This document shows positions 12,766 to 57,374 of a stretch of DNA of 64,000 nt, piece by piece (position 1 is the first letter of the stretch; every line of letters starts with the position of its first letter). The stretch covers positions 17,780 through 81,779 of the forward strand of contig JBGVCT010000003.1 of assembly GCA_045118975.1 (NCBI GenBank). The letters run 5' to 3'. Both the position numbers and the translations under genes were made by a program. Source of the stretch: Bacilli bacterium. Lineage in GTDB: Bacteria > Bacillota_I > Bacilli_A > RFN20 > DUOF01. The notes below the pieces were generated by a model, which saw only the letters and a list, made by a program, of their open reading frames with translations, did no database searches and was not told the DNA's origin.

Positions 12766-13338
12766 GTGAAAACTATAAACAGAGAATTATCTTATATAGA
12801 AATTATAAAGAAATCTAAATTTCTTACTTTTTTACACCCCATAACAAGCGCTAATCAAGCAAAAGAAATTCTAGAAAATTATAAAAAAGAATATAGTGAT
12901 GCAACACATATTTGCTACGCCTATATTCTAGATGAAAATACATTTAAATATTATGACGATGGAGAACCTTCTTCAAGTGCAGGTGCCCCTATCTATCAAT
13001 CGCTAAAAAATCATGATGTTATATATACTCTAGCGATAGTTATTCGCTACTTTGGAGGCACAAAATTAGGTGTAGGTGGTCTAACTAGAGCTTATGCAAG
13101 TGGAGTATTATCGCTAATTGCCAATAACCTTGTTGAATACAAAAAATATGAAGAATACATCGTAGAGATTCCCTATTCTTTATATGATAGTTTTACATAC
13201 CACATAAATAATAAAGGAATTGCCCTTAACGATAAGCAATTCCTTGATAATATATTCATTTCTTTAAACTTAGATGAAGATAGCCTTATTGAATTAAAAG
13301 AACTATTTCCATCACTAGATTTTATTTTATCAAAATAA
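12766..13338 (+). CDS. yigZ: YigZ/IMPACT family protein (UPF0029)
   Basis: The sequence EIIKKSKFLTF...DATHICYAY...DDGEPSSSAG...VVIRYFGGTKLG matches the YigZ N-domain. The start is assigned to the GTG after the AGGGTGAGAG RBS; the track TTG at 12715 is probably an over-extension. Confidence 0.8.
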   Translation: MKTINRELSYIEIIKKSKFLTFLHPITSANQAKEILENYKKEYSDATHICYAYILDENTFKYYDDGEPSSSAGAPIYQSLKNHDVIYTLAIVIRYFGGTKLGVGGLTRAYASGVLSLIANNLVEYKKYEEYIVEIPYSLYDSFTYHINNKGIALNDKQFLDNIFISLNLDEDSLIELKELFPSLDFILSK

Positions 13339-14046
13339 ATCTCCGACAATACCTGCAATAGTATTTAATATAGCCAATAAGAATATTGCTACACCAAAGA
13401 AAGCAAAAGCTTTAAGTTTTTCTTTTCTGACTTCTGGTTGATCTGCATATCTAGCAATATCTATACCTAGAAGTATACCTTTAATTACTAACACTATTCC
13501 TAAAATAGCATAAATAATGTAAATAATATATGTTTTACAAAAGACTACAATCTTTTCAATCCACGTTAAAGCTTCTTCTGCATATTTATCTTCGCTTCTT
13601 TCTTCATTAAAAGAAGCGTTTTCTTTTATGTATTCAAATTCAACATCTAATTCTCCTGGTGATTCTGAATCTATCGCAGCAGGATATTGTTTAAACTCTG
13701 CTGTTACTTTCAAAGTATAGGTAACTCCATTACTCATTTCAAAATACTCAGTCAGATAGAAATCAACATAGCCACCAGAAGTATATTGTTCATTGAATTC
13801 TTTTATAGTAGGCTCTACAATCCCACAACTATTCTTAGGACAAAGGGTAAGTTTTACATTTTCCGCTTTGTATTTAAATGACACTCTTACAACATAATCA
13901 TCATAGACAGTAAAACTTCCAACTTCTCCCTCTCCTGGATATATAACCGTTGAATACCCATAAGAAGAACGTGCATCTACTGTAGTTGGGTTCAAAAACA
14001 ATATCCCTATAAGTAGTAAAAATATTGATAATAACTTCTTTTTCAT
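13330..14046 (-). CDS. secreted protein with a VirB2/TrbC-like C-terminal two-helix hairpin (putative pilin-like T4SS component)
   Basis: It has a signal peptide (MKKKLLSIFLLLIGILFLNPTTVDA|RS), an ectodomain of about 140 aa, and then the hairpin YAILGIVLVIKGILLGIDIARYADQPEVRKEKLKAFAFFGVAIFLLAILNTIAGIV. Confidence 0.45.
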   Translation of the reverse strand: MKKKLLSIFLLLIGILFLNPTTVDARSSYGYSTVIYPGEGEVGSFTVYDDYVVRVSFKYKAENVKLTLCPKNSCGIVEPTIKEFNEQYTSGGYVDFYLTEYFEMSNGVTYTLKVTAEFKQYPAAIDSESPGELDVEFEYIKENASFNEERSEDKYAEEALTWIEKIVVFCKTYIIYIIYAILGIVLVIKGILLGIDIARYADQPEVRKEKLKAFAFFGVAIFLLAILNTIAGIVGDLF

Positions 14047-15320
14047 TAGATAAATCCTACCATCAACTCAGCAATAGCTTCTACAATATCAGTAAAGAAC
14101 CATACGATTACCATTATAATAACCAATGACACAAATAGTGCAACCAAGTGTTTAATATTATCTCTTCTAACATCTGGCTCATCACTAGCCTTAACTATTC
14201 CAACTATCAAAATTGTTCCCCTTACAAGCAACAATACTCCTAAACCTATTTCTAGAATTGGTCTTATATATTCTTGGAATATTTGTATAAATTCTTCTAA
14301 TTTTTCATTATCTATTAATTTACCAGGAGTCATTGCTACAAGACCTGCAACTTGATCCACATAAGTAAGCGTTTGAGTTCTAAGTTCATAATCGCTATCA
14401 ACAACATCAGGAGCAGCTGCATTAGTAAATACATTTGTATTAGAAACAATAGCAGTATCACTAGGACTCCTTACTGAAGCAACATTTAAGAATTGTGCTT
14501 TTGTTGTTAACATTGTATTAATATGGTAAGTAATTCTTGATGTTCCTTCTGGATCTGATGAATCTGGAGCAGTAACTGACATTGTTACAATAACATAAGC
14601 TCCTGATGAATAAGCCATATTTCTTACTCTATCTGGCATATGTTCTATTACATTATATTTATTATAAATAACTCCAGCATCATTTGTTATTTTATTAAAT
14701 CCATTTGCTTCCATTGTAATTTCAGTAAATGATAAGTTTCCATATTTACCCTCATTTTGCCAAGTACCATGATTAGCATCCACTGTACTATTGATTTTTT
14801 TTGCATGATTACACAATTTATAACCACCTGAAGGATTTGTACAAGCAACATATACAGTGCTACTATGATCATTATCTGTTAAACCAGCGATAGAATAATA
14901 AATATCAAGTTTTGATATTTCTATGTCATTTTGAAGTCTTACAGTCAAATTAGAGTACTCATCCACATAAAATTGAGCAACCGCAGATTTCAATTCGTTT
15001 CCACTACACAAGATATTTCCTACCTTATTCCAATTATTAAAGTTAGTAGAAGCAGTACATAAATCATCTGAGGCATTCAGTAATTTACTTTCCGAAATAG
15101 GAGATGGCCCTACATCATTATCAAGCGTGAATGAAGATTTATATAACGCTTGCCTAACTGAATAAAGTCCTGAGTATTCAGTTTCAGAACGTTGAATTAA
15201 AGCCCCATACACTACTATAGTTCCATCATCTTGAGCAGCATAAACTTTTTCTGTAGTTTTTATTGGCATCATTATTAAAATCAATAAAAATGTTGCAACT
15301 AATGAGAATATTTTTTTCAT
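14046..15320 (-). CDS. secreted protein with a VirB2/TrbC-like C-terminal two-helix hairpin (paralogous tail to 13330-14046)
   Basis: It has a signal peptide (…KVYA|AQ), an ectodomain of about 320 aa, and then LEIGLGVLLLVRGTILIVGIVKASDEPDVRRDNIKHLVALFVSLVIIMVIVWFF. An ATGA overlap joins it to the next gene. Confidence 0.45.
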   Translation of the reverse strand: MKKIFSLVATFLLILIMMPIKTTEKVYAAQDDGTIVVYGALIQRSETEYSGLYSVRQALYKSSFTLDNDVGPSPISESKLLNASDDLCTASTNFNNWNKVGNILCSGNELKSAVAQFYVDEYSNLTVRLQNDIEISKLDIYYSIAGLTDNDHSSTVYVACTNPSGGYKLCNHAKKINSTVDANHGTWQNEGKYGNLSFTEITMEANGFNKITNDAGVIYNKYNVIEHMPDRVRNMAYSSGAYVIVTMSVTAPDSSDPEGTSRITYHINTMLTTKAQFLNVASVRSPSDTAIVSNTNVFTNAAAPDVVDSDYELRTQTLTYVDQVAGLVAMTPGKLIDNEKLEEFIQIFQEYIRPILEIGLGVLLLVRGTILIVGIVKASDEPDVRRDNIKHLVALFVSLVIIMVIVWFFTDIVEAIAELMVGFI

Positions 15321-15396: not shown

Positions 15397-15419
15397 ATAA
15401 AAAACTCCCTAAGGAGTTA
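15397..15419 (-). terminator. rho-independent terminator of spoIIQ
   Basis: Hairpin AACTCC-ttag-GGAGTT followed by T6. It overlaps the stop codon. Confidence 0.55.
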
Positions 15420-16061
15420 AATATCTTTTATGTTTTTAGAAATATTGGCAAGTGGATTAATATACTTGCCGTTTTTTAACAAAGAAAAATTCAAATGATT
15501 GCCCATATTAGAATGAATTGTATTAGTGCCTGCTTTACCTATCAAATCACCTTGTTTAACAACATCTCCAACTTTTAAAGAAACATCTGTCAAACTAGAA
15601 TATGTCGCTACCAATCCATTTTCATTTTCTATGATTACACTCAATCCATACATTGGATCAACCACTTTGTCTACAACCTTTCCAGAAAAAGAAGAAACGA
15701 CTTCAAAGTTATGATTGTTATAAAAATAATCCACCCCATTTGAAGGAGTATAACTACCATTATAATAAACTAATGCTTTTTCTCTTTTACTCGCATCATC
15801 ATTTAAATCATAGTAGTAAGTTTTAATTTGAGCATTAACTTTGAATGGAAGTTGCATTTTTTCTTCTGTTATAACAACAATTTCTTCTTCCTTTTCCTCT
15901 TCTTTTTCCACAACACTATCACTAACTACTTCACTCTCTTCATTATCGCTAATGGATATCCCAATAATTCCAGCACCCAATATTCCAACCAAAAAAGTAG
16001 TTAATATTGTGTATTTTGTAGCTTTAGTTAATTTAATTTCTCTTAGTTTTTCCTTTTCCAT
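15417..16061 (-). CDS. spoIIQ: stage II sporulation protein Q (degenerate LytM/M23 domain)
   Basis: An N-terminal TM anchor is followed by REKALVYYNGSYTPSNGVD...SGKVVDKVVDPMYGLSVIIENENGLVATYSSL...VKQGDLIGKAG...GNHLNFSLLKNGKYINPL. From memory, this is collinear with B. subtilis SpoIIQ. Confidence 0.75.
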   Translation of the reverse strand: MEKEKLREIKLTKATKYTILTTFLVGILGAGIIGISISDNEESEVVSDSVVEKEEEKEEEIVVITEEKMQLPFKVNAQIKTYYYDLNDDASKREKALVYYNGSYTPSNGVDYFYNNHNFEVVSSFSGKVVDKVVDPMYGLSVIIENENGLVATYSSLTDVSLKVGDVVKQGDLIGKAGTNTIHSNMGNHLNFSLLKNGKYINPLANISKNIKDI

Positions 16062-16598: not shown

Positions 16599-16994
16599 TT
16601 ATTTTACAAAAAACTTAGAGAAAAAGAATTTAACTCTTATGTTTGAGTCATCACATGTATTTCTCTTTAAATTACCTTTTATAGAATCTCCCTTTGCCTC
16701 TCCAATAAATATAATGATTTTTCCACCTCTATATTCGCCACGACTTCCCTCAAGAGCAAATCTATCAATGTTTGCTTCAACTGCTTTTGCCACTAATGAT
16801 TCTTCAAGACTAGAAATAACAAGATTATATTCATTTATCAAATGTTCTTTATAAATATATCCTTGTATTACATCTTTATTTTCATTGCTATTTAAAACTA
16901 TTTCATACTCATAATTAAACTCTTTTTTACTGACACTAAACCCACAAAATAGCACGCTTAACCCTAATACAAGTACACAAACCTTTTTATACAT
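16599..16994 (-). CDS. small exported or anchored protein, unknown function
   Basis: It is 131 aa with an N-terminal hydrophobic signal or anchor (VCVLVLGLSVLFCGF). I recognise no family. Confidence 0.5.
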   Translation of the reverse strand: MYKKVCVLVLGLSVLFCGFSVSKKEFNYEYEIVLNSNENKDVIQGYIYKEHLINEYNLVISSLEESLVAKAVEANIDRFALEGSRGEYRGGKIIIFIGEAKGDSIKGNLKRNTCDDSNIRVKFFFSKFFVK

Positions 16995-18974: not shown

Positions 18975-18998
18975 AAGAAAAAGGAAATTAATTTCCCT
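18975..18998 (-). terminator. weak rho-independent terminator after the VirB4-like gene
   Basis: The palindrome GGAAATTAATTTCC spans the stop codon and is followed by TTTTTCTTTT on the minus strand. The stem is AT-rich. Confidence 0.4.
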
Positions 18999-21591
18999 TA
19001 TTCTTCTTAAAGTTTTGGTCATCTGTAGATTTTTTAAATGCTCTTTCTTCTTTTTCGCTAACCAAAATCTTATGCATAGTAATTCTTTGTCCTGGTGCAA
19101 CAACAAATAAACATTGTCCAATACCTGCGTTAGCGATAAAGTCTTTTTCTTGATCTGAGAATCCACCAACAGATGCATACAAGTCAATAAGTGACTGCAA
19201 GTCAGCAGGGTTAAGACCGAATATAAATGAGTATTGACAACCATTTATAATCGCCGTTGTATATTTTTTAATATTAACCGCACCAACAAAGTCGTTTACG
19301 TTTTGTGTGATAACAACGAAGATACCATTGTATTTTCTAATACGCTTAATCATGTTGTGCATGAATAGCAATGCAGCAGGGCTCTTTTCATCAATGAATA
19401 CGTGTGCCTCATCTACTACGATAGCAATGTGTCTATTATCACCTTTTGCCAAGTTGTGTTCTCTGTTTTTGCTTACTTCATTTTCTAAGAATCTAAGTAC
19501 AAGCATCATTTGAGCGTTCATTACTTGGTCATTTTTAGAGTTTGTCATTTTTCTAAAGTCAAACAGGATTAAATCACTGTTCTTTGTATCAATTGTAGTA
19601 GGTCCATTCCATAAGTTAGATAGCGAACCTTCTCCACACAATCTATCCATATAAACTTCTAGGTTTCTTAAATCATTTAATTCACTACCAACCTCTACAG
19701 CTCTATTACTATCTTTAACAATAATATCGCTAAGTTCAGCAATTCTTTGTTTAATAATGTTCATGATATCATCCATTACAGGGAAATCAGTAGCCTTATA
19801 TTTTACAAAGTCTTCATATTTAGAAATTCCTTTTTCTTCATATGCTTGGCTAAACATTTTAGAAAGTCTTGAAACCTCTCTGTTTGTCATATCAGGAATT
19901 AAGTTTTGCATAAATTGTTCTAAGAATTGAATGTGGCTAGAGAAAATAGATCTATAACCATCTCTCATTTCTTCTTTTGTTAACACCTTATCTCCCGCTT
20001 CTTCTTGCATTACACCAAAGATATGGAAAGGGTTAATTCTAGAGTTATTACCACTACCAACGTCGATGATTTGACCACCAAGTCTTTGAGTCATGATATC
20101 ATATTCTCCTTCAGGGTCAACAATGAATGTTTTAACACCCTCAAGAATCATCTTAAGTAACATTTTCTTTGTAAAGTGAGACTTACCACTACCAGACTTA
20201 CCAATAATCATCATGTTAGAGTTAGTTCTAGAAGGACTTCTTGTTTTAGGGTCAAAGAAAATCAAACTTGATTCATTATAACCCAATAAGAATCCATCTC
20301 TATCTTTAAGATCTTGGAACATAAATGGGAAAGATGCACCTAAAGTTGATGAAGGGATATCTCTACCATTAGTTAAAATAAGATCATCTCTTGGAGATGG
20401 TAACATAGATATAAGACCAGTCATTTGTCTCATAAGTAGCTTATCTACTTTAAATCTATGTTGTTTAAATTGGTTAAGCACTTTTCTATTTGTTGTTCTT
20501 AATTCTTTTTCATTCTCAGCATATGTCATTACATAAATACCGATTAATTTTAAGTATTCATTACCTCTTTCAATATCTCTTAAAACTTCAACGAAAGAAT
20601 CTAATTGAGCTCTTTTAGCCATGTTTTCAGACATCTTTCCTCTTTCAAGAATTTGAGTGTTAATTTCTCTTATCGCCTTATCCATTAAAGCTTTGGCAGT
20701 AGATTGTTCTACATTTCTAATATTCATAACACATGTTGTATTTGGCATACCAACAAGAGGAGTTAACCAAGCTCCAGTTACTTCTCCTGGATAATCATAT
20801 GTTGAGAAAATAGATTCATGCACAGTATCTGTTTTAATCTTTGTTGCAAAGAACTCAATATTCTCTGGCATAATCTCTTTTTTATAATCAACCTCAGGAT
20901 GGCTAAAGAATGACTCTTTTCTTCTTCCTGTTGGATTATAGAAATAATAATACATAGTTTTAATTTCTGCATCATTACAAACTTTTGGTTCAAGTTTAGT
21001 AATAGCAAGTTTTTCGTAAGCATCATCTGTAGCACCTAAAACAGTCTCTTTGCTACCATGATATAAGATGATATAGAAAGACTTAATCATAACCGGATAA
21101 TCAGTGTTGTAAGCATTGATTAAATCATATTCATATTGAATTTGATTTTTTCTTTGTTTATATCCATCCTCTGACATTTCCTTGTCTGCAAATTTTTTAT
21201 CAAGTAGCCCAAACATACCTACTTGTTTATCTACAGAAGTAGTCAAATCTAACTTTCTTTCTAATTTTAAAATTGTACAATCCGTACTTACGCTATTAAA
21301 TACACTAGCAAGTTGTCTCATTTTAGACATTTGCTCTTCATGAGAAAGGTATGAAATGTTTAAAGAACCAACCTTAATAACTTTACCATACTTACCGTTT
21401 GTAAATGTAATAAGTCCATTTTCAATACTACGAATAGGAAGGAAATCTAAAATATCTCCACCTTTTCTTGCTGCGTTTTTAGCAGCTTGTTCTTTTCTTA
21501 GTTTTTCTTGTCTTTCAGCTTCTTTTTTCTTAGCGTCCTCTGCTTTCTTTATGCTAGGATCTGCTTTTTCTATAACCTTACTTCTTGCCAT
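18988..21591 (-). CDS. VirB4/PrgJ/TrsE-family type IV secretion ATPase
   Basis: The 867 aa product has the Gram-positive VirB4 N-domain (DFLPIRSIENGLITFTNGKYGKVIKVGSLNISYLSHEEQ), Walker A IIGKSGSGKS (20179-20202), Walker B HIAIVVDEAH, and VVITQNVNDF. Confidence 0.9.
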   Translation of the reverse strand: MARSKVIEKADPSIKKAEDAKKKEAERQEKLRKEQAAKNAARKGGDILDFLPIRSIENGLITFTNGKYGKVIKVGSLNISYLSHEEQMSKMRQLASVFNSVSTDCTILKLERKLDLTTSVDKQVGMFGLLDKKFADKEMSEDGYKQRKNQIQYEYDLINAYNTDYPVMIKSFYIILYHGSKETVLGATDDAYEKLAITKLEPKVCNDAEIKTMYYYFYNPTGRRKESFFSHPEVDYKKEIMPENIEFFATKIKTDTVHESIFSTYDYPGEVTGAWLTPLVGMPNTTCVMNIRNVEQSTAKALMDKAIREINTQILERGKMSENMAKRAQLDSFVEVLRDIERGNEYLKLIGIYVMTYAENEKELRTTNRKVLNQFKQHRFKVDKLLMRQMTGLISMLPSPRDDLILTNGRDIPSSTLGASFPFMFQDLKDRDGFLLGYNESSLIFFDPKTRSPSRTNSNMMIIGKSGSGKSHFTKKMLLKMILEGVKTFIVDPEGEYDIMTQRLGGQIIDVGSGNNSRINPFHIFGVMQEEAGDKVLTKEEMRDGYRSIFSSHIQFLEQFMQNLIPDMTNREVSRLSKMFSQAYEEKGISKYEDFVKYKATDFPVMDDIMNIIKQRIAELSDIIVKDSNRAVEVGSELNDLRNLEVYMDRLCGEGSLSNLWNGPTTIDTKNSDLILFDFRKMTNSKNDQVMNAQMMLVLRFLENEVSKNREHNLAKGDNRHIAIVVDEAHVFIDEKSPAALLFMHNMIKRIRKYNGIFVVITQNVNDFVGAVNIKKYTTAIINGCQYSFIFGLNPADLQSLIDLYASVGGFSDQEKDFIANAGIGQCLFVVAPGQRITMHKILVSEKEERAFKKSTDDQNFKKNKGN

Positions 21592-21886
21592 TTTTTACTA
21601 CACCACTTCTCTTTTTATAATATTTTTCTTGAGAAAAGAAATCAAAGATAACACCAAATGATTGATATCCTTTCTTGTTAGTGATAAATGATGGTGAAAC
21701 CATCACTAAAGCAGCAAGACCCATAAAAACAATTATAACAATTTTAACACCTAGGTTCCATTGTGTGTTAAATACTAGTAAAGCAAGAACAACAGTTGCA
21801 GCTAGGATTCCAGCCTCTGGCAATCCTAATCCTTTAAAAAGTTGTAATTTTACATTTCTAGCAGATTTTGGTATCAAGTATCCCAT
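21578..21886 (-). CDS. PrgI/VirB3-like small T4SS membrane protein
   Basis: The 102 aa product starts IPKSARNVKLQLFKGLGLPEAG and then has two TM helices. It overlaps the virB4 start by 14 nt. The position and architecture match PrgI/ORF17-type proteins. Confidence 0.6.
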   Translation of the reverse strand: MGYLIPKSARNVKLQLFKGLGLPEAGILAATVVLALLVFNTQWNLGVKIVIIVFMGLAALVMVSPSFITNKKGYQSFGVIFDFFSQEKYYKKRSGVVKNGKK

Positions 21887-21892
21887 AATTCA

Positions 21893-23833
21893 TTATTCCC
21901 CTTTCTTTTGATTCTCGTAGAAGTGAGCAGCCTTATTACTTGCGCTCATCAATCTCTCTCTTTGCTTATCCGCTTGTTCTTTTAATTTAAGAGCTTCTGA
22001 AGTAGACATTCTTTCTCCATTCATTTTTTGAAGTTTAGATGCTGTCTTTGCATAATCTAGTTGAGCTTTTCTATATGAATTAGAAATATTTTTAAGTTCT
22101 TCTTTTGTTTGTTTAGAAATCTCACTAGTCATTGTAGTTGTTGCTCTTTGTTCAAACTTCCTATAGTTATCAGCTAATATATCAGCTTCTTTTTTATAAG
22201 CAGCGGCATAGTCATTAAATGATTTATTCATTTGTGCACTATCATTACTGTTTATTGCAGCAGTGAAGTTATTGCTTGCACTCTTATAATCATTAATCAT
22301 GTTATTTGCAACTTTAGTAGCAGCCTTATCCATCATCTTCCATTCATTAGTAGAAGAAACATTTACATCAGGTTTTACAGATGAGTTTATATAAACAACT
22401 CCTGGACTAACTTTCTCTCCACTATAGTTGCCTTTAGCAACCCCATCTTTAACTGTTCTATTGTTAATTGTGTTAGTTGAATTAAACTTATTTGTTATAG
22501 TTACATTTTGAGTAACATGATTTGTTGTCTTATTAGCAGAATCTTTTCCACCAATATTTCCTCCACCAGAGAATGAACTTTGTCCAAGTCCTCCAGGTTG
22601 TTGAGATTCAATAAATACAGTTTCTCTTTTTGTAGTAGTTGTATTTCTAGTAACTGTTCTTGTTCTAGTTGTTGGTTGACTAGGTTTAGAAGATATTCTT
22701 GATAGTACGTTTTCAAGTAAAGCATCAGTTTTAGTTTCTTTACCTTTAAGAATATCTGCAAGCATTTTAGCACTACTTCTTGTTACACTTGCCGCAGTCA
22801 TTATGATTAATGTTCTACCAACACCATTTAATAATGAGAATGTTGAAGTTACAACCTCTTCTTCAGGAGTAGCACCAGGTTCTGGTTCAAATATGTCACC
22901 AAGCCCTGTATCTTCCTCTACTGATGGCTCTGTAGCTGCAAGTGAATCTAAATTTATATTATTTATCACATTAACCAATGCAACAAATATCATAAACGTA
23001 CCCATTTGAGTTAAGAATAATACAAATTCATAAATCAATTTACCTTGCCATTCTTTAAAACTCTTACCATCATCTAATACCATCTTTGAGATTGCCATTG
23101 GAGAAGCCACATATAATATTACAATGTTGAATAATCTTTTAACCATTTCAAACACAATAACACCCAGGTTGTACAAAACAAATGCTCCACCAAGCAATGA
23201 TATATACCAATGGTAAGCTAATGGAGTTGTTTCTACTCCTGGATCAACTGGAGCTGGATACATTAAGTCGTATAGGAATCCATTACCCAACTCTCTAAAT
23301 GAAGTATAACTAGTTCCAAATGTTTCATTGTATACCTCTATCAAGTTTCCTGAGTTGTTAAATATTGCATCCGCTATACTTATAGATGTGTTATTTCCAA
23401 ACCCGGCAATCCAAACCGCAAGATTACTTACCGCAGAAATTGCAAATAATACAATCGGTCCCATAACAGCGATGAGCAAGAAGGCAAGAGCCATATTTTT
23501 AAGCATTGGGGCCAAACTCCTGTGCTCCTCTTTTGTCATAGTCCTAAGTATTGTAACGAGACTAAATATTAAAATTAGTCCCAAGGCAAAAATTAGTAAT
23601 ATCGCGTAAGCAGTAGTTATTACATTTTGTCCAAGTATTTGATCAATTATACTGGCCTTTTCTACAACGCCATTATTAATATTGATACCAGCCACTTTAT
23701 AAAACAATTTGGTAATCTCATCAACAAGAGATAAAACTGAATAAGTCAGTTTCCAAACTATTTCATACAAAACATATAAGATACCCCTCGCGGCATTTTC
23801 ATAACCTTTACCTGCTAAAGATAAAAAATTCAT
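21893..23833 (-). CDS. VirB6/PrgH-like polytopic membrane protein with a long C-terminal tail
   Basis: At least 6 TM helices fill the first ~380 aa, followed by a T/N/S/G-rich and coiled-coil tail. The ATG at 23833 follows GGTGAT. The track TTG at 23902 is the -35 box of the operon promoter. Confidence 0.55.
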   Translation of the reverse strand: MNFLSLAGKGYENAARGILYVLYEIVWKLTYSVLSLVDEITKLFYKVAGININNGVVEKASIIDQILGQNVITTAYAILLIFALGLILIFSLVTILRTMTKEEHRSLAPMLKNMALAFLLIAVMGPIVLFAISAVSNLAVWIAGFGNNTSISIADAIFNNSGNLIEVYNETFGTSYTSFRELGNGFLYDLMYPAPVDPGVETTPLAYHWYISLLGGAFVLYNLGVIVFEMVKRLFNIVILYVASPMAISKMVLDDGKSFKEWQGKLIYEFVLFLTQMGTFMIFVALVNVINNINLDSLAATEPSVEEDTGLGDIFEPEPGATPEEEVVTSTFSLLNGVGRTLIIMTAASVTRSSAKMLADILKGKETKTDALLENVLSRISSKPSQPTTRTRTVTRNTTTTKRETVFIESQQPGGLGQSSFSGGGNIGGKDSANKTTNHVTQNVTITNKFNSTNTINNRTVKDGVAKGNYSGEKVSPGVVYINSSVKPDVNVSSTNEWKMMDKAATKVANNMINDYKSASNNFTAAINSNDSAQMNKSFNDYAAAYKKEADILADNYRKFEQRATTTMTSEISKQTKEELKNISNSYRKAQLDYAKTASKLQKMNGERMSTSEALKLKEQADKQRERLMSASNKAAHFYENQKKGE

Positions 23834-23872
23834 TAAAATCACCACGTATTTCCGGTCACTAGACCTACATAA

Positions 23873-23902
23873 ATTATAACCTAGTATTTTTTGTTTTTTC
23901 AA
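23873..23902 (-). promoter_or_regulatory. sigma-A-type promoter of the T4SS-like triad
   Basis: On the minus strand, TTGAAA is followed by 18 nt and then TATAAT. This leaves a leader of about 40 nt before the ATG at 23833. Confidence 0.45.
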
Positions 23903-23962
23903 TTATTTACCAAGATTAAAAAAAATATGTGTAAATTTTGATTAAAAAATATATTTTTTAAA

Positions 23963-23990
23963 GAAAAAAAGAGTAACTTTCTCGTTACCC
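23963..23990 (-). terminator. rho-independent terminator of spoIVA
   Basis: Hairpin GGGTAAC-gagaaa-GTTACTC with one mismatch, followed by T7. Confidence 0.45.
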
Positions 23991-23991
23991 T

Positions 23992-25519: not shown

Positions 25520-25542
25520 AAAAAAAGCCGATTCCTCGGCTT
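25520..25542 (-). terminator. rho-independent terminator after the 140-aa gene
   Basis: Hairpin AAGCCGA-ggaa-TCGGCTT followed by T7. Confidence 0.7.
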
Positions 25543-25963
25543 ATCTTCTTTTCGTACTTGTATTTTTTTTGTTTCTCTCTATTTGATCAACAACTTCATT
25601 ATATTGAGGTTCTACTTGATCTAGTAATTTATTAGCGTTTCTTTCAAGCACTGTCAATTGGAATTCACATGCTCTTGTATCTTCTTGAGCATTAGATTCT
25701 CTTGTTCTAGAATTCATTTCTATTCTCTTGTCTAAATCATCAATAGCACATGCAAGAACTAATGTGTGATCAATTTTTTCAATTTGCGCTTTTGTGTAAC
25801 CTTTTCTTTTAGCCACTTCTTCTAACGCTTTTCTATTTGCTTTTAAAACATCGTCATAATGTTTTGATAATGACGCCTCTAATTTATCATAATTCAAAGG
25901 TTCTTTAACTCTTGATTTAGCCCATTGCATTTTTGTGCTTTCTTCTGTTACCTTCTTAGCCAT
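25541..25963 (-). CDS. hypothetical protein (140 aa, helical, charged)
   Basis: The ATG follows the AGGTGAG RBS. I recognise no family. It shares a short KGY...motif region with the next gene (AKRKGYTKAQIEK versus AKQKGYQLKEW). Confidence 0.6.
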   Translation of the reverse strand: MAKKVTEESTKMQWAKSRVKEPLNYDKLEASLSKHYDDVLKANRKALEEVAKRKGYTKAQIEKIDHTLVLACAIDDLDKRIEMNSRTRESNAQEDTRACEFQLTVLERNANKLLDQVEPQYNEVVDQIERNKKNTSTKRR

Positions 25964-25987
25964 ATTAACTCACCTAACCTTAATTAG

Positions 25988-26016
25988 ATTTTACCATTAT
26001 CGATATCATTTATCAA
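25988..26016 (-). promoter_or_regulatory. sigma-A-type promoter of the 140-aa gene
   Basis: On the minus strand, TTGATA is followed by 17 nt and then TAAAAT. The leader TAAAATCTAA..TAGGTGAGT is shared with the promoter at 27916-27944. Confidence 0.4.
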
Positions 26017-26037
26017 ACATTCATTACTTTTTCCACA

Positions 26038-26526
26038 CTATACTTTTTTTCTAGGTGGATTATTTTCATATTTTGCTAAAACATTTGGACACAACTTACT
26101 TGTCTCATTAATAAATACATTCATTATTTGAATAATTTCAGCAATATATGTATGTCCTCTTCTTTGACTTTTATCAACTTTATATTCATCTAAGAACTTC
26201 TTTAATATATCTTGTTGTTTTTCTAAAAGATCCCTTTTGATTGCAGCCAATCTTCTAGCTTGAACTAGAGCTACATGCCACTCTTTTAGTTGATATCCTT
26301 TTTGCTTAGCAATCTTTCTTACATTCTTTTCTATTTCTTTTAACTCTTTCTTTGTCCCCTCTGGGCAAGTATCTATCCAATCTGCAATAAACTCAGAAGG
26401 ATCTTCTTCATATTCAGGAATTCTAAAAGGAGATTTACCATTTGGGTTTATCCATTTTTTTCCTGCTGCTTTGTTTTTTTCCATCATCGCTGTGATTTCT
26501 TTAATTTCGGCTTCATATTTAAGCAT
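26038..26526 (-). CDS. hypothetical protein (162 aa)
   Basis: The ATG at 26526 follows GGAGTG; the track GTG at 26535 is an over-extension. I recognise no family. Confidence 0.6.
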   Translation of the reverse strand: MLKYEAEIKEITAMMEKNKAAGKKWINPNGKSPFRIPEYEEDPSEFIADWIDTCPEGTKKELKEIEKNVRKIAKQKGYQLKEWHVALVQARRLAAIKRDLLEKQQDILKKFLDEYKVDKSQRRGHTYIAEIIQIMNVFINETSKLCPNVLAKYENNPPRKKV

Positions 26527-26547
26527 ATCTATCACTCCATCGATAAT

Positions 26548-26576
26548 ATTTTATCATTGCAAACGAGTGTTTTCAA
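26548..26576 (-). promoter_or_regulatory. sigma-A-type promoter of the 162-aa gene
   Basis: On the minus strand, TTGAAA is followed by 17 nt and then TAAAAT. Confidence 0.35.
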
Positions 26577-26579
26577 TCA

Positions 26580-27092
26580 TTATTTTCTAGCCTTATCAAT
26601 AAATCTTTTTCCTATTTTTTCTTTCAAAAAAGTATCAAATTCTTCTTCACCAATACCTACAAAACCATTTCTCTCCATAATAAAAGCCTGCGTTCTAGTA
26701 ATAAACAAAAAATAGTACTCTTTACTTTTGTATACAGAGAGTAACTCTTTATAGTAGTATTCATCGTTAAAGTCACCTAATTTGGAAACTTGATTTATAC
26801 TAACGCATTCATCAAGAAACGAAAATGTTTGCCTTGCCCCACATCTGAGTAATGCATTCTTTTTAATATTTTCGCTTTCTAATAGTTTAATAAAATAATG
26901 CACAAATATCGGTAAACTTATAGCTAAAACAAGATATATGTATCCCGCATATTGAAAAAACAATAATAAAACTCCAATTAAGCACAACAAAAAAGAAGTT
27001 ATATAAGAAAGTAGTTTAACCTTTTTATATAACAACTTTTGAAATGCTTTATAACTTTTTATAGTATAAACAGAAACATTAATCCTTTTCAT
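26580..27092 (-). CDS. YcxB-like membrane protein (two TM helices plus a C-terminal YcxB/PH-like domain)
   Basis: The 170 aa product has a TM pair (FLLCLIGVLLLFF and IYLVLAISLPIFVHYFI) and then a soluble domain with a pattern similar to YcxB-family proteins. Confidence 0.5.
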   Translation of the reverse strand: MKRINVSVYTIKSYKAFQKLLYKKVKLLSYITSFLLCLIGVLLLFFQYAGYIYLVLAISLPIFVHYFIKLLESENIKKNALLRCGARQTFSFLDECVSINQVSKLGDFNDEYYYKELLSVYKSKEYYFLFITRTQAFIMERNGFVGIGEEEFDTFLKEKIGKRFIDKARK

Positions 27093-27098
27093 GTTTTT

Positions 27099-27893
27099 TT
27101 ATGGTCTTGTAACAGAGCCCATTCTAAGTCTATTTCTAGTTGTTTGTCTGTTTTCTGTTGTAATTTTTTCTGGGCCTTCTGTTGTAGATTCTGTTGTAGA
27201 TTCTGTTGTATTTTGTTTTTGGTCATTAACGATAGATCCAGATCCCTTCCCCACCATAGCAACTGTTTGAGCATATTTGCTTGGATCATATTTTAAACTA
27301 TCATATCGTGTTGATCTAGGAGATGGTAACCCCTTAAGAATGTTATTTATATCTGTTGAAGTTGCTTTTGCTGGTGATTTACTTGCCATATCTACACCAA
27401 GTCCCAGTTTAGCATCTTTTTGCCCCGCTTTATTTCTTTTTGCTAAATTTTTAAGTTCACTCTTTTTGGTTTGATCATTAAGCTTTTTGAAGTTTTCCCT
27501 GTTTTCCTTCATTTGATTTTTTATATTTTTATAGTCTTCTTTACTTTGCATAAGTTTTTCACGAATCTTCATTAGTTCAAGCGCCATTCTTTTTTTCTTG
27601 CCAACTTTTTCTTCAATTCGTGCTCTAACTAGTAAATCGCTGTACTTATTGTACATTTCTTCCATGTGATCAAAAAGTTCTTGTCTTTCTTCTTCTAAAA
27701 GATCATATTCTCCATTTAAAAATTCTTGTATTACTAAAGAAGCATACAAGCATTCTTCCATTTCCTTTAATTCATCTTCGCTTAGTTCGCCTTCTTTTAA
27801 TATTTCTAATCTTTCTTCTACTTCTTTATCAATTAAAAGTCTAGTTTCTTCGTCCATGCGCCTAGCAATATTAGCTATTTCTCTTTTTGTCAC
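27099..27893 (-). CDS. hypothetical coiled-coil protein with a T/E/S-rich tail
   Basis: The start is assigned to the GTG at 27893, 5 nt after AGGTGAG. The track GTG at 27902 lies inside that RBS. The product is acidic and helical at the N-terminus, K-rich in the middle, and carries TTESTTESTTE near the C-terminus. Confidence 0.6.
   Translation of the reverse strand: MTKREIANIARRMDEETRLLIDKEVEERLEILKEGELSEDELKEMEECLYASLVIQEFLNGEYDLLEEERQELFDHMEEMYNKYSDLLVRARIEEKVGKKKRMALELMKIREKLMQSKEDYKNIKNQMKENRENFKKLNDQTKKSELKNLAKRNKAGQKDAKLGLGVDMASKSPAKATSTDINNILKGLPSPRSTRYDSLKYDPSKYAQTVAMVGKGSGSIVNDQKQNTTESTTESTTEGPEKITTENRQTTRNRLRMGSVTRP
27177..27210 (-). repeat. 12-nt tandem repeat (about 2.8 copies) inside a CDS
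   Basis: On the plus strand, TTCTGTTGTAGA occurs twice plus a partial copy, encoding TTESTTESTTE. A degenerate copy lies at 27153-27164. Confidence 0.8.
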
Positions 27894-27915
27894 AGCACTC
27901 ACCTACTCTATTTAG

Positions 27916-40729: not shown

Positions 40730-40738
40730 AACAACCAC

Positions 40739-55751: not shown

Positions 55752-56600
55752 TTATAATAACTCCATTATTCTCTTTAATGTATTTTCATCCTTAAATGAA
55801 ATTCTAATTTCATTATCTTTAATTTTAACTTTAGTCTTAAACTTCTTGTGTAAAGCACTAGTTACATATTCATAATATGGATTGAAATCTTTTTGTTCTG
55901 GCTTTTTAGCTCTGTTAATTTCTCTACCATGTGCTAAATTTGCTAATGCCTCAATTTGTCTAGAAGTATATCCAAGTTCGATTGCATCATTTGCAATTTT
56001 AATGGCATCGCTTTCACTTAAATTAATAAGTGGCTTAACTTGACCCATAGTCAATACACCATTAATTACATAATCTTGAATAACTTGTGGTAAATTCAAT
56101 AGTCTCATGATATTAGCAATATATGATCTAGATTTACCTACTCTTTGTCCAATTTGTTCTTGAGTAAGACCTAATTTGCTACACAAACTATCATATGCCT
56201 TTGCTTCTTCAATAACATTTAATTCTTCTCTTTGAATGTTTTCAATGATAGATAACTCCATCATTTGCTTATCATCAAATTCTGCTACAATTGCAGGAAC
56301 TTTAGTTAAACCAGCAATTTTACTAGCTCTAAATCTTCTTTCTCCAGCCAAGATTTGATATCTTCCATCACTTGTTTTTCTAAGTAAAATTGGAGAAATA
56401 ACACCATAAGTCTTAATTGATGTTGCTAATTCTTGTAATTTAACTTCATCAAATATTTTTCTTGGTTGATATGGGTTAGTATCAATTAACTTAGTAGAAA
56501 CTTCTTGTCTAGATTCACTAGTAGCATATTCCTTTAATTTTTCAATTTCTTTTAATTCTTCACTTATTTCAAATACATTAATCTTGCTCTGACTTTGCAT
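55752..56600 (-). CDS. parB: chromosome partitioning protein ParB/Spo0J
   Basis: It has the ParB box LAGERRFRA, the N-terminal motif NPYQPRK, and an HTH (LTQEQIGQRVGKSRSYIAN). Confidence 0.95.
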   Translation of the reverse strand: MQSQSKINVFEISEELKEIEKLKEYATSESRQEVSTKLIDTNPYQPRKIFDEVKLQELATSIKTYGVISPILLRKTSDGRYQILAGERRFRASKIAGLTKVPAIVAEFDDKQMMELSIIENIQREELNVIEEAKAYDSLCSKLGLTQEQIGQRVGKSRSYIANIMRLLNLPQVIQDYVINGVLTMGQVKPLINLSESDAIKIANDAIELGYTSRQIEALANLAHGREINRAKKPEQKDFNPYYEYVTSALHKKFKTKVKIKDNEIRISFKDENTLKRIMELL

Positions 56601-57360: not shown

Positions 57361-57374
57361 TGTATATACCTCCC

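What the first reader, a model, noticed from the sequence alone, without database searches (positions are those of the whole stretch)
18988..23902. Orphan three-gene T4SS core (VirB6-like, PrgI/VirB3-like, VirB4 ATPase) between spoIVA and typA, with no DNA-processing or mobility genes
**Seen in sequence**
- Three tightly coupled minus-strand genes form the unit. The gaps are 6 nt and a 14-nt overlap.
- The first is a polytopic membrane protein of about 646 aa.
- The second is a 102-aa two-TM protein starting IPKSARNVKLQLFKGLGL.
- The third is an 867-aa ATPase with a Gram-positive VirB4 N-domain, Walker A GKSGSGKS and Walker B VVDEAH.
- The unit has its own TTGAAA-18-TATAAT promoter (23873-23902) and a terminator hairpin (18975-18998).
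- The flanks are core genes (spoIVA and typA), each with its own terminator or promoter.

**Established knowledge**
- The gene order matches prgH-prgI-prgJ of Enterococcus pCF10 and the orf15-17 module of Tn916-type elements.
- In those elements the module always travels with a VirB8-like/NTF2 protein, a peptidoglycan hydrolase, a VirD4/FtsK-type coupling protein, a relaxase and an integrase. None of these is present anywhere in these 64 kb.

**Inference**
- All three ORFs are long and intact, which argues against simple ICE decay.
- The module may be a domesticated, chromosomally fixed minimal secretion or uptake machine.
- Its function is unknown. Protein export, DNA uptake or release, contact-dependent killing, or a sporulation-linked channel are all untested possibilities.
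Basis: partly seen in the sequence, partly recalled or inferred. Interest (0 to 1): 0.8.

Follow-up and report, generated by a model that had tools for sequence, protein, structure and literature searches.

The report
Chromosomally fixed mycoplasma-type T4SS core
The three genes are real and form the membrane core of a type IV secretion machine of the kind mycoplasmas use for conjugation, but here it is a stable, strongly conserved chromosomal fixture of an uncultured spore-forming gut Bacilli lineage, with pilin-like partner genes nearby and no DNA-transfer genes next to it, so it has probably been repurposed for something other than classical conjugation.

Summary
Three intact, tightly coupled minus-strand genes lie between spoIVA and typA: a VirB6-like gene (646 aa), a VirB3-like gene (102 aa) and VirB4 (867 aa). 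A conserved sigma-A-type promoter sits upstream. The 3' terminator is weak.

All three belong to the Mollicutes ICE conjugation module, not to the pCF10 or Tn916 types:
- VirB4 passes the NCBIfam Mbov_0397 cutoff.
- The 102-aa protein matches the N-terminal membrane domain that is fused to VirB4 in Mollicutes.
- The 646-aa protein passes the Mbov_0396/MMCAP2_0566 cutoffs.

The unit is not an ICE remnant:
- It is intact in 11 related MAG loci, at 48-94% VirB4 identity.
- It sits beside spoIVA in five lineages.
- VirB4 dN/dS is 0.042, against 0.034 for typA.
- There is no relaxase, T4CP, integrase, tRNA or att repeat in the 64 kb.

It is not truly orphan either. Relatives carry a six-gene cluster (pilin, giant VirB6, VirB4b, VirB6a, VirB3, VirB4a) in the same spoIVA-typA interval. 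In the nearest relative, and probably in this genome, the first half sits elsewhere.

The closest functional analogues are the relaxase-less chromosomal T4SSs of Patescibacteria and Bartonella Trw. The function itself is inferred, not shown. I rate it a new variant of a known kind, interest about 0.62.

The parts
23873..23902 (-). Sigma-A-type promoter of module A (TTGAAA, 18 nt, TATAAT).
   Evidence: Best match in the region, at 11 of 12 positions. The -10 is invariant and the -35 nearly so in six related loci, whatever the upstream gene. The intergenic region is 94% identical to L003 although dS is about 1.
21893..23833 (-). VirB6-like polytopic membrane protein, 646 aa. The N-terminal 350 aa form a 6-7 TM domain. 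The C-terminal 300 aa form a conserved hydrophilic, helical extension.
   Evidence: NCBIfam NF045848 (MMCAP2_0566 family) scores 110.7 bits against a cutoff of 90. NF045889 (Mbov_0396 ICE transmembrane protein) scores 77.7 against 70. Pfam TrbL_4 is sub-threshold at E 0.003. The AF2 model has pLDDT 67. Its top Foldseek hit is a chain of the R388 T4SS inner-membrane complex (8rtd_H), but at E 0.48. dN/dS is 0.13.
21578..21886 (-). VirB3/PrgI-like two-TM protein, 102 aa. Its gene overlaps the VirB4 gene by 14 nt.
   Evidence: It matches positions 2-97 of the Mollicutes VirB4 model NF045975 (E 1.2e-7), that is, the membrane domain fused to VirB4 in Mollicutes. Pfam PrgI hits 8 of 9 orthologues, best E 1.1e-4, and DUF4133 scores E 0.0016. 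The N-terminal YLIPKSAR.VK..FKG.G motif is invariant. dN/dS is 0.096.
18988..21591 (-). VirB4-family ATPase, paralogue A, 867 aa.
   Evidence: NCBIfam NF045975 (Mbov_0397 family ICE conjugal transfer ATPase) scores 599.6 bits against a cutoff of 590. Pfam P-loop_TraG scores E 3.6e-18, with AAA_10 and DUF87 also hit. Walker A and B are invariant. dN/dS is 0.042. The closest plasmid homologues are Spiroplasma, at 27-31% identity.
18975..18999 (-). Weak AT-rich hairpin with a T-run, overlapping the VirB4 stop codon. A possible leaky terminator.
   Evidence: dG -8.1 kcal/mol and z -0.98 against shuffles. It is not called by the terminator scan. A typA promoter-like site follows at 18954-18926.
14046..15320 (-). 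Secreted beta-rich ectodomain fused to a C-terminal VirB2-like two-helix pilin domain, 424 aa. A probable accessory surface component of the system.
   Evidence: Pfam T4SS_pilin scores E 0.0065 at residues 339-410. NCBIfam Mbov_0395 pilin-like scores E 9.2e-6, sub-threshold. It shares the loop motif (A/S)DEPxVR with the small pilins that sit beside the T4SS in relatives. The AF2 model has pLDDT 82, with helices at 338-377 and 382-423. There is no PDB fold match. dN/dS is 0.56.
13330..14046 (-). Second, shorter ectodomain-pilin fusion, 238 aa.
   Evidence: It has the same C-terminal domain. NCBIfam Mbov_0395 pilin-like scores E 0.0032. The 424-aa/238-aa pair is conserved, with yigZ-comFA-comFC downstream, in L003 and L085.

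Best explanation
**What it is**

The three genes encode the cytoplasmic-membrane core of a type IV secretion system of the monoderm MPF-FATA class, in its Mollicutes-ICE branch.
- The VirB4 hexameric ATPase supplies the energy.
- The VirB3-like hairpin tethers VirB4 to the membrane. The two are one polypeptide in Mollicutes and two translationally coupled genes here.
- The VirB6-like polytopic protein forms the channel or assembly platform.

**History**

- The module is a vertically inherited chromosomal fixture of an uncultured spore-forming gut Bacilli lineage related to Erysipelotrichales and Mollicutes.
- The ancestral layout was spoIVA, pilin, VirB6, VirB3, VirB4.
- It duplicated in tandem into a six-gene cluster with two VirB6 and two VirB4 paralogues.
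- In the closest MAG, and by inference in this genome, the pilin, giant-VirB6 and VirB4b half moved to another core locus. That left this triad with its own sigma-A promoter.

**Most likely function (inferred, not shown)**

No coupling protein, relaxase or recombinase accompanies the module in any of the loci examined. The system does keep VirB2-like pilins and fast-evolving pilin-anchored ectodomain proteins. The most likely job is therefore not self-transfer of DNA. I propose VirB4-driven extraction and assembly of pilin-domain proteins into a surface filament or adhesive structure for cell-cell contact, possibly doubling as a conduit. This is what has been proposed for the T4CP-less Bartonella Trw system and for the relaxase-less Patescibacteria T4SS.

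**Shown:** family membership, gene content, synteny, selection, promoter conservation, and absence of mobility genes in the regions held.

**Inferred:** pilus or adhesion function, cooperation of the two VirB4 paralogues, and involvement of the 13330-15320 genes.
For: **Family**
- NCBIfam scores are above the curated cutoffs for VirB4 and for the VirB6-like protein. The 102-aa protein matches the N-terminal domain of the same VirB4 model.
- A Spiroplasma plasmid has the same gene order: adhesin, Mbov_0395 pilin, Mbov_0396, a hypothetical protein, Mbov_0397, then a T4CP.

**Fixation and vertical descent**
- The module is intact in 11 related loci, and L003 is fully syntenic with the window.
- In L084 the whole six-gene cluster sits between spoIVA and typA.
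- spoIVA lies directly upstream in L011 and L013.
- The A and B paralogue trees are congruent, and the clade is monophyletic.
- VirB4 identity tracks that of core genes.

**Selection**
- dN/dS is 0.042 for VirB4, 0.096 for VirB3L and 0.131 for VirB6L, against 0.034 for typA and 0.058 for spoIVA.

**Not mobile**
- Every other ORF that matches a family is a housekeeping, sporulation or competence gene.
- There is no tRNA and no att repeat.
- GC and codon usage lie within the range of the window.
- tblastn with the Spiroplasma T4CP finds nothing in the window or in L001-L013.
- Module B in the closest MAG lies between rplM-rpsI-eno and dedA-pgi-pgm.

**Pilins**
- The small pilin next to module B passes the Pfam T4SS_pilin cutoff. 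8 of 9 pilin-domain sequences hit that family.
- The window's two fusion proteins share the domain and evolve fast, with dN/dS 0.56 for the 424-aa protein.

**Regulation**
- The promoter is conserved in six loci.

**Precedents**
- Patescibacteria have a chromosomal, relaxase-less T4SS with VirB2-like pilins, essential for epibiotic growth (PMC12102498; PMC12857230).
- Bartonella Trw lacks VirD4 and carries variable pilin copies, proposed to serve adhesion (PMC12857230).
Against: - The function is wholly inferred. There are no expression or phenotype data.
- The rest of the genome could not be scanned. A T4CP or relaxase encoded elsewhere is not excluded, and T4CPs are often encoded far from virB4 (PMC12102498).
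- The closest experimentally studied homologues, M. agalactiae ICEA CDS15/16/17, are needed for conjugation (PMC6030558).
- The VirB6 fold match is not significant (E 0.48). The PrgI and T4SS_pilin Pfam scores of the window proteins are below the gathering thresholds.
- No VirB1-like or VirB8-like component was found. It is therefore unclear how a filament would cross a Gram-positive wall.
- The two pilin-fusion genes are 3.7 kb away, beyond typA and rpiB. They are absent from the equivalent position in L084, so their link to the triad is circumstantial.
- All relatives are MAGs.
Confidence: 0.6

Rival explanations
1. It is a working conjugation or chromosomal-transfer apparatus, like mycoplasma ICE transfer and mycoplasma chromosomal transfer. 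Its coupling protein and DNA-processing functions would be encoded elsewhere in the genome.
For: - The nearest characterised homologues are conjugation genes. ICEA CDS15, CDS16 and CDS17 are each required for transfer (PMC6030558).
- NCBIfam places VirB4 and the VirB6-like protein in those families.
- In Spiroplasma plasmids the T4CP gene directly follows VirB4.
- T4CP genes are often encoded far from virB4 (PMC12102498).
- Another Firmicutes locus (L083) combines a T4SS_pilin, a T4CP and a VirB4.
Against: - No T4CP homologue lies within 10 kb of the module in any of 11 clade loci or in the 64-kb window.
- Both modules are embedded in core genes.
- Vertical descent, with congruent paralogue trees, and typA-like constraint fit a host function better than a selfish element.
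- There is no recombinase, tRNA or repeats.
Confidence: 0.17
2. It is a DNA-uptake (competence) machine. A T4CP-less VirB2/3/4/6 set would import DNA, as in Helicobacter ComB or the archaeal Ced system, and hand it to ComEC/ComFA/ComFC.
For: - ComB works without VirD4, using VirB2-4 and VirB6-10 homologues plus ComEC (PMC12857230).
- The pilin-fusion gene pair is followed by yigZ and then comFA-comFC in the window, in L003 and in L085, which shares 33% identity with the 424-aa protein.
- There is a weak NCBIfam hit of VirB4 to the archaeal DNA-translocating ATPase CedD (E 1.7e-5).
Against: - The comF adjacency concerns the pilin-fusion genes, not the triad. It is interrupted by an opposite-strand gene.
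- In L084 the equivalent position holds an ABC transporter.
- In Saccharibacteria the essentiality of the T4SS is independent of ComEC (PMC12857230).
- The CedD hit is far below its cutoff of 600 bits.
Confidence: 0.1
3. It is a sporulation-linked channel or envelope machine, co-opted because of its fixed position beside spoIVA.
For: - spoIVA lies immediately upstream in five lineages, down to 48% VirB4 identity.
- spoVIF and a SpoIIQ-like M23 protein are within a few kb.
Against: - The conserved promoter is of the vegetative sigma-A type, TTGAAA-18-TATAAT.
- A strong terminator separates spoIVA from the module.
- In the closest MAG, module B sits among ribosomal and glycolytic genes.
- Homologous systems work in non-sporulating Mollicutes and Patescibacteria.
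Confidence: 0.05
4. It is a decaying remnant of an integrated conjugative element, with no current function.
For: Only a subset of T4SS genes is present, and its closest named families are ICE families.
Against: - All ORFs are intact in every relative.
- dN/dS ranges from 0.04 to 0.13.
- The promoter and intergenic region are more conserved than synonymous sites.
- Walker motifs are invariant in both paralogues.
- The position is syntenic across deep divergence.
Confidence: 0.02

Closest known systems
Conjugative module of Mollicutes ICEs and Spiroplasma plasmids: M. agalactiae ICEA CDS15/16/17, which correspond to the NCBIfam Mbov_0395/0396/0397 and MMCAP2_0565/0566 families.
   Same: - The protein families are the same, with VirB4 and the VirB6-like protein above the NCBIfam cutoffs.
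- The gene order is the same: pilin-like, polytopic TM protein, (small TM protein), VirB4.
- No VirB1-like or VirB8-like partners are present (PMC12857230).
   Different: - Identity is only about 28-31%.
- The VirB3-like domain is a separate gene rather than fused to VirB4.
- There is no adjacent T4CP (CDS5), lipoprotein CDS14 or DDE transposase CDS22.
- The module is not on a mobile element. It is fixed beside spoIVA and vertically inherited.
- VirB6 and VirB4 are duplicated.
- The host is a spore-former and so presumably has a cell wall.
Chromosomal relaxase-less T4SS of Patescibacteria (CPR), described in PMC12102498; the essential system of Southlakia epibionticum is reviewed in PMC12857230.
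   Same: - It is a chromosomal MPF-FATA-derived T4SS in a monoderm.
- It has VirB3, VirB4 and VirB6 plus VirB2-like PF18895 pilins.
- It has no relaxase at the locus.
- It is vertically inherited within the lineage.
- Its pilin genes are multiple and divergent.
   Different: - VirB4 is only 22-27% identical and falls outside the Patescibacteria group in the NJ tree.
- Here there are two VirB4/VirB6 paralogue sets and ectodomain-pilin fusions.
- No TrsD-like gene was seen.
- The host is a spore-forming Bacilli lineage, not an ultrasmall epibiont.
- Essentiality is unknown.
Bartonella Trw T4SS.
   Same: It lacks VirD4 and carries multiple sequence-variable pilin genes. The proposal is that it kept pilus production for adhesion and dropped substrate transfer (PMC12857230).
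   Different: It is a Gram-negative MPF-T system with an outer-membrane core complex and VirB5 copies. It has no close sequence relationship to the system here.
Rickettsiales rvh T4SS.
   Same: It has duplicated VirB4 and extended VirB6 paralogues. It is scattered over several chromosomal loci, vertically conserved, and not part of a mobile element (PMC2653234; PMC12857230).
   Different: It is a diderm P-type system with VirB8-11 and VirD4, and it translocates effectors into eukaryotic cells.
   Same: The functional order is the same: VirB6-like, VirB3-like, VirB4. Orthologues give sub-threshold Pfam PrgI hits.
   Different: The scores are far weaker than for the Mollicutes families. The CD1110-type VirB4 model scores 182.6 bits against a cutoff of 325, and PrgI scores 15 bits against 27. 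Those elements also carry VirB8-like proteins, a hydrolase, a T4CP and a relaxase, none of which is present here.

Membership tests
VirB4 ATPase, Mollicutes ICE type (NCBIfam NF045975, equivalog) | Whole-protein score above the curated cutoff of 590 bits. | tested here: met
   The score is 599.6 bits, E 7.9e-180, over model positions 99-893. The margin is narrow. Paralogue B in L010 scores 644.5 bits.
VirB4 ATPase, Mollicutes ICE type (NCBIfam NF045975, equivalog) | Intact Walker A and Walker B nucleotide-binding motifs. | tested here: met
   GKSGSGKS at 464-471 and DEAH at 727-730 are invariant across 10 A and B paralogues.
VirB4 ATPase, Mollicutes ICE type (NCBIfam NF045975, equivalog) | N-terminal VirB3-like membrane domain as part of the same polypeptide (model positions 1-98). 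| tested here: not met
   This domain is encoded by the separate 102-aa gene, which matches model positions 2-97 at E 1.2e-7 and overlaps VirB4 by 14 nt.
Mbov_0396 / MMCAP2_0566 ICE transmembrane protein (VirB6-like, ICEA CDS16) | Scores above the curated cutoffs (70 and 90 bits). | tested here: met
   The scores are 77.7 and 110.7 bits over residues 18-366.
TrbL/VirB6 superfamily | Pfam TrbL/VirB6-clan match above the gathering score, or a significant fold match to VirB6. | tested here: inconclusive
   TrbL_4 scores 17.5 bits against a cutoff of 27. The top Foldseek hit is a chain of the R388 T4SS inner-membrane complex, whose subunit identity was not checked, at E 0.48 and TM 0.22-0.30, from a model with pLDDT 67. 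A profile search against PDB sequences found nothing. The polytopic topology with 6-7 TM segments is met.
VirB3 / PrgI (PF12666) | Small two-TM protein encoded next to VirB4 and matching the family profile. | tested here: inconclusive
   The two TM segments and the position are met. PrgI scores E 0.033 for the window protein. It hits 8 of 9 orthologues, best E 1.1e-4, all below the gathering score of 27 bits. Homology to the VirB3-like domain of Mollicutes VirB4 supports the assignment.
Integrative conjugative element (mycoplasma ICE or any other ICE) | Coupling protein (VirD4 or CDS5 type) within the element. | tested here: not met
   There is no T4CP family hit in any window ORF. tblastn with the Spiroplasma T4CP finds nothing in the window or in L001-L013.
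Integrative conjugative element (mycoplasma ICE or any other ICE) | Integrase, DDE recombinase or relaxase, plus flanking repeats or a tRNA target. | tested here: not met
   None is present in the 64 kb.
Integrative conjugative element (mycoplasma ICE or any other ICE) | Patchy presence or variable location among related genomes. | tested here: not met
   The module is present and intact in all 11 clade loci. It lies beside spoIVA in five lineages.
Patescibacteria-type chromosomal T4SS | Chromosomal VirB3/4/6 cluster with VirB2-like PF18895 pilins and no relaxase at the locus. | tested here: met
   The small pilin in L010 scores 28.2 bits against a cutoff of 26.6. The window's own pilin-domain proteins are sub-threshold.
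Patescibacteria-type chromosomal T4SS | VirB4 inside the monophyletic Patescibacteria clade. | tested here: not met
   Identity is 22-27%. The NJ tree puts the Bacilli clade with Firmicutes and Spiroplasma sequences, apart from the CPR group. The tree has no support values.
Patescibacteria-type chromosomal T4SS | Required for growth or for host attachment. | not testable with these tools
   This needs genetics in a cultured representative.
T4SS_pilin (PF18895) / Mbov_0395 pilin-like, for the genes at 13330-15320 | Profile score above the cutoff, and a two-helix hairpin with a short charged loop. | tested here: inconclusive
   The scores are below the cutoffs: Pfam 17.0 bits against 26.6 for the 424-aa protein, and NCBIfam 25.3 and 17.1 bits against 40. 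The hairpin is predicted with pLDDT of about 90. The loop motif (A/S)DEPxVR is shared with bona fide small pilins.

The most novel reading that the evidence does not exclude
Spore-forming gut Bacilli outside the CPR carry a host-essential or fitness-critical, pilus-building T4SS. In this reading a double VirB4/VirB6 machine assembles VirB2-like pilins and displays pilin-anchored ectodomains of a new fold, and the cell uses them to attach to other cells and exchange material with them. The Patescibacteria-style repurposed T4SS would then not be unique to ultrasmall epibionts. It would be an older monoderm invention shared with the ancestors of Mollicutes, whose ICE conjugation module may derive from it.
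Probability: 0.25. Interest if true: 0.8.

Novelty: new variant of a known kind. Interest (0 to 1): 0.62.

Why it matters
- A recent review of the field states that VirB2 pilins, and the potential to build T4SS pili, are found among monoderms only in Patescibacteria (PMC12857230). This locus and its relatives show a chromosomal, relaxase-less T4SS with VirB2-like pilins in spore-forming gut Bacilli. Two more distant uncultured Firmicutes loci carry related VirB4 genes: one beside a T4SS_pilin and a T4CP (L083), the other as a giant-VirB6/VirB4 pair among core genes (L081/L082).
- It links three things so far treated separately: the minimal conjugation module of mycoplasma ICEs, the CPR T4SS, and duplicated or scattered T4SSs such as the Rickettsia rvh system.
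- It gives a tractable comparative set for asking what a T4SS does when it stops moving DNA: single-copy, tandem six-gene and split layouts, all anchored beside spoIVA.
- Public annotation calls these proteins only 'ATP-binding protein' or 'VirB4 component'. No paper in the searchable library describes them.

Tried and rejected
- **Fold of the VirB6-like protein.** An AF2 model of the N-terminal domain (pLDDT 67) searched with Foldseek against the PDB gave no significant match. The best hit was a chain of the R388 inner-membrane complex at E 0.48. A sequence profile against PDB chains found nothing.
- **Fold of the 424-aa pilin fusion.** A confident AF2 model (pLDDT 82) searched with Foldseek against the PDB gave no match to the ectodomain.
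- **M23 peptidase.** I considered the protein at 15417-16061 as the missing VirB1-like hydrolase. I rejected this because its best family is SpoIIQ and it has the SpoIIQ architecture.
- **Large ORFs.** I considered the 868-aa and 1200-aa ORFs at 38132-44341 as T4SS partners. They have no TM segments and no similarity to the giant VirB6 paralogues.
- **ICE borders.** I looked for att repeats, tRNA genes and Rfam families and found none.
- **Foreign composition.** GC, GC3 and codon usage lie within the range of the window.
- **Word-based protein searches.** These gave only close relatives for the VirB6-like protein (31 hits) and for the 424-aa protein (2 hits).
- **Whole-genome scan.** The genome could not be scanned for a T4CP or relaxase.

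Full report
**1. Observation**

- 18988-21591 encodes 867 aa.
- 21578-21886 encodes 102 aa.
- 21893-23902 reads as 669 aa from a TTG.

That TTG lies inside the -35 hexamer. The plausible start is the ATG at 23833, behind a GGTGA ribosome-binding site. This gives 646 aa, the same length as the orthologue in L003. The 6-nt gap and the 14-nt overlap are as described.

Walker A (GKSGSGKS) and Walker B (VVDEAH) are present and are invariant in an alignment that spans both paralogue groups. A hydropathy scan gives 6-7 TM segments in the first 350 residues of the 646-aa protein and 2 in the 102-aa protein.

The promoter TTGAAA-18-TATAAT (23902-23873) is the best consensus match in 13 kb. Such matches are no more frequent in the region than in shuffles. 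What validates it is conservation.
- The spoIVA-to-VirB6L spacer is 94% identical to L003, although dS in the flanking genes is 0.9-1.7.
- The -10 hexamer is invariant, and the -35 nearly so, in six loci. These include four where the upstream gene is a second VirB4 rather than spoIVA.

The 3' hairpin is weak: dG -8.1 kcal/mol, z -0.98. The spoIVA and typA terminators are strong by comparison.

**2. Context**

Every other ORF in the 64 kb that matches a family is a housekeeping, sporulation or competence gene.
- To the left of the triad lie whiA, uvrB, ctpA, prfB, secA, comFC/comFA, yigZ, rpiB and typA.
- To the right lie spoIVA, spoVIF, der, cmk, tgt/queA/queH, spmA/B, dacB, pepF, parB/parA, gidB/gidA and holB.

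There is no relaxase, coupling protein, VirB8-like protein, integrase or transposase. There is no tRNA, no Rfam family and no att-like repeat. GC, GC3 and codon usage of the triad fall within the range of the window. The M23 peptidase at 15417-16061 has an N-terminal TM segment, and its best NCBIfam match is SpoIIQ. It is a sporulation protein, not a T4SS hydrolase.

**3. What the proteins are**

Pfam alone is vague: P-loop_TraG, AAA_10 and DUF87 for the ATPase, with sub-threshold DUF4133 and TrbL_4 for the other two. NCBIfam is decisive.
- The ATPase scores 599.6 bits against NF045975, 'Mbov_0397 family ICE element conjugal transfer ATPase' (cutoff 590). It aligns to model positions 99-893.
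- The 102-aa protein aligns to positions 2-97 of the same model (E 1.2e-7). It is therefore the VirB3-like membrane domain that is fused to VirB4 in Mollicutes. Here it is split off and translationally coupled.
- Residues 18-366 of the 646-aa protein pass both NF045848 (MMCAP2_0566 family, 110.7 bits against 90) and NF045889 (Mbov_0396 ICE transmembrane protein, 77.7 against 70). This is the CDS16 family, regarded as the VirB6 equivalent of mycoplasma ICEs (PMC12857230).

Eight of nine orthologues of the 102-aa protein also give sub-threshold PrgI hits.

The closest plasmid-borne VirB4s are from Spiroplasma, at 27-31% identity. One such plasmid has the order adhesin, Mbov_0395 pilin-like, Mbov_0396, hypothetical protein, Mbov_0397, T4CP.

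The fold test of the VirB6-like domain was inconclusive. The model has pLDDT 67. The top Foldseek hit is a chain of the R388 T4SS inner-membrane complex, but at E 0.48.

**4. Relatives**

The VirB4 has close relatives only in uncultured 'Bacilli bacterium' and Erysipelotrichaceae gut MAGs. Beyond those come Spiroplasma, Clostridia MAGs and Patescibacteria, at 22-30% identity.

L003 (sheep rectum MAG RGIG6178, 94% identity) is collinear with the window from der to comFC.

Several relatives (L004, L005, L007, L009, L011) carry a larger cluster:
- a small pilin (105-124 aa),
- a giant VirB6 paralogue (1341-1648 aa),
- VirB4b (about 812 aa, 55% identical to VirB4a),
- VirB6a,
- VirB3,
- VirB4a.

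In L084 this whole six-gene cluster lies exactly between spoIVA and typA. L011 also has spoIVA directly upstream. So does the deepest branch, L013, which has a single pilin-VirB6-VirB3-VirB4 set at 48% identity.

In RGIG6178 the pilin, giant-VirB6 and VirB4b half lies on another contig, between rplM-rpsI-eno and dedA-pgi-pgm. The window's triad is thus the remaining half of a split system.

An NJ tree makes the clade monophyletic and gives congruent A and B subtrees. This is as expected for one duplication followed by vertical descent. The tree has no support values.

dN/dS against L003 is 0.042 for VirB4, 0.096 for VirB3L and 0.131 for VirB6L. It is 0.034 for typA and 0.058 for spoIVA. None of the 11 clade loci, nor the window, contains a T4CP homologue.

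**5. Additional parts in the window**

The proteins at 14046-15320 (424 aa) and 13330-14046 (238 aa) each have three elements:
- a signal peptide,
- an extracellular domain,
- a C-terminal pair of hydrophobic helices.

The loop between the helices carries the motif (A/S)DEPxVR, shared with the small pilins of module B. Eight of nine of these sequences hit Pfam T4SS_pilin, and the L010 small pilin exceeds the gathering score. NCBIfam gives sub-threshold Mbov_0395 'pilin-like conjugal transfer protein' hits.

An AF2 model of the 424-aa protein is confident (pLDDT 82). It has a beta-rich ectodomain and a long helical hairpin, and no PDB fold match.

The family is rare: 58 representatives among 1.84 billion proteins. 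The 424-aa protein evolves fast, with dN/dS 0.56. The gene pair is conserved, with yigZ-comFA-comFC downstream, in L003 and L085. It is absent from the equivalent place in L084.

**6. Mechanism**

Shown:
- This is the VirB3/VirB4/VirB6 inner-membrane core of an MPF-FATA T4SS of the Mollicutes-ICE branch.
- It is chromosomally fixed, vertically inherited and under strong constraint.
- It has its own conserved sigma-A-type promoter.
- VirB2-like pilins accompany it.
- No coupling protein, relaxase or recombinase lies in the regions available.

Inferred: VirB4, anchored by the VirB3-like hairpin to the VirB6-like platform, extracts pilin-domain proteins from the membrane and assembles them into a surface filament or adhesive structure, possibly a conduit. 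This is the role proposed for the VirD4-less Bartonella Trw system and for the relaxase-less, pilin-rich Patescibacteria T4SS, which is essential for epibiotic growth (PMC12102498; PMC12857230). The two VirB4 paralogues may occupy distinct positions in one complex.

Rivals:
- Conjugation or chromosomal transfer with a T4CP encoded elsewhere. This cannot be excluded without the whole genome, and ICEA CDS15/16/17 are conjugation genes (PMC6030558).
- ComB- or Ced-like DNA uptake. The neighbouring comFA/comFC genes are only a hint.
- A sporulation-linked role. Only the spoIVA linkage supports it, and the sigma-A-type promoter argues against it.
- ICE decay. This is contradicted.

**7. Comparison and novelty**

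Membership of the Mollicutes VirB4 and CDS16 families is met by the curated score cutoffs. Membership of an ICE is tested and not met. The system resembles the Patescibacteria T4SS in repertoire and in chromosomal fixation, but its VirB4 lies outside the CPR group.

Related systems occur in two other uncultured Firmicutes loci.
- A giant-VirB6/VirB4 pair sits between gapdh and a V-ATPase operon in L081/L082.
- L083 combines a T4SS_pilin, a T4CP and a VirB4.

Public databases label these proteins only 'ATP-binding protein' or 'VirB4 component'. No paper in the searchable library describes them.

I rate this a new variant of a known kind. It is of moderate to high interest to T4SS specialists, because a recent review treats Patescibacteria as the only monoderms with VirB2-like pilins and a repurposed T4SS.

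**8. Caveats**

- All relatives are MAGs.
- The function is untested.
- The VirB4 score exceeds its NCBIfam cutoff only narrowly.
- The Pfam scores for PrgI, T4SS_pilin and TrbL in the window proteins are sub-threshold.
- The rest of the genome could not be scanned.

Noticed in passing
window 13330-15320 (minus strand): Two adjacent genes encode a signal peptide, a beta-rich ectodomain with no PDB fold match, and a C-terminal VirB2-like pilin hairpin. The family is rare, with 58 representatives in 1.84 billion proteins. The 424-aa protein evolves fast (dN/dS 0.56). The pair is conserved upstream of yigZ-comFA-comFC in L003 and L085.
   Followed up: partly
window 15417-16061 (minus strand): An M23 peptidase with an N-terminal TM segment. 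Its best NCBIfam match is SpoIIQ (138.6 bits, below the cutoff of 250). It is probably the forespore SpoIIQ of this lineage rather than a T4SS cell-wall hydrolase.
   Followed up: partly
window 18988-21591: The VirB4 gene has a third-position GC skew of about 0.01. Nearly all other minus-strand genes in the window have 0.2-0.6. Its codon usage is about 1 SD from the window mean despite its length. This is unexplained. Gene conversion with the paralogue elsewhere in the genome is one speculation.
   Followed up: no
window 23834-23991: The intergenic region between spoIVA and the VirB6-like gene is 94% identical to the L003 orthologous spacer, although synonymous sites nearby are near saturation. 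Besides the promoter, the roughly 40-nt leader (AGGTCTAGTGACCGGAAATACGTGGTGA) is conserved and may hold a regulatory element. It has no Rfam match.
   Followed up: partly
window 25541-27902: Four small, fast-evolving ORFs (140, 165, 170 and 267 aa) lie between spoVIF and spoIVA. One has a YcxB domain and one has weak phage-type DUF hits. They are absent in L013, where spoVIF abuts spoIVA. This is a lineage-specific insertion of unknown function.
   Followed up: no
window 38132-44341 (minus strand): Two adjacent large ORFs (868 and 1200 aa) have no TM segments and no family match above threshold. The only hit is a weak DUF6782 metallopeptidase match. They are unrelated to the giant VirB6 paralogues.
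   Followed up: partly
window 16599-16994 (minus strand): A 131-aa protein with an N-terminal signal or anchor segment is conserved next to typA in L003 and L084. It has no family hit.
   Followed up: no
window 55752-59940; whole-window GC skew: parB, parA, gidB and gidA are present, and GC skew is uniformly negative. This places the window on one replichore, with the origin beyond the right end. The T4SS module therefore lies within some tens of kb of the origin region, reminiscent of the origin-proximal T4SS reported for some Patescibacteria (PMC12102498).
   Followed up: no
L081/L082 4357-11532; L083 2394-13756: Two other uncultured Firmicutes loci carry related VirB4 genes in chromosomal settings. 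In one, a 1502-aa VirB6-like giant and a VirB4 sit between gapdh and a V-ATPase operon. In the other, a T4SS_pilin, a T4CP, VirB6-like proteins and a 1251-aa VirB4 follow a two-component system, with no relaxase within 10 kb.
   Followed up: partly
L008 1271-8815: This relative has two VirB3-like genes, one after VirB4b and one before VirB4a, so each VirB4 paralogue has its own anchor. In the other clade loci examined, module B has no VirB3-like gene.
   Followed up: no
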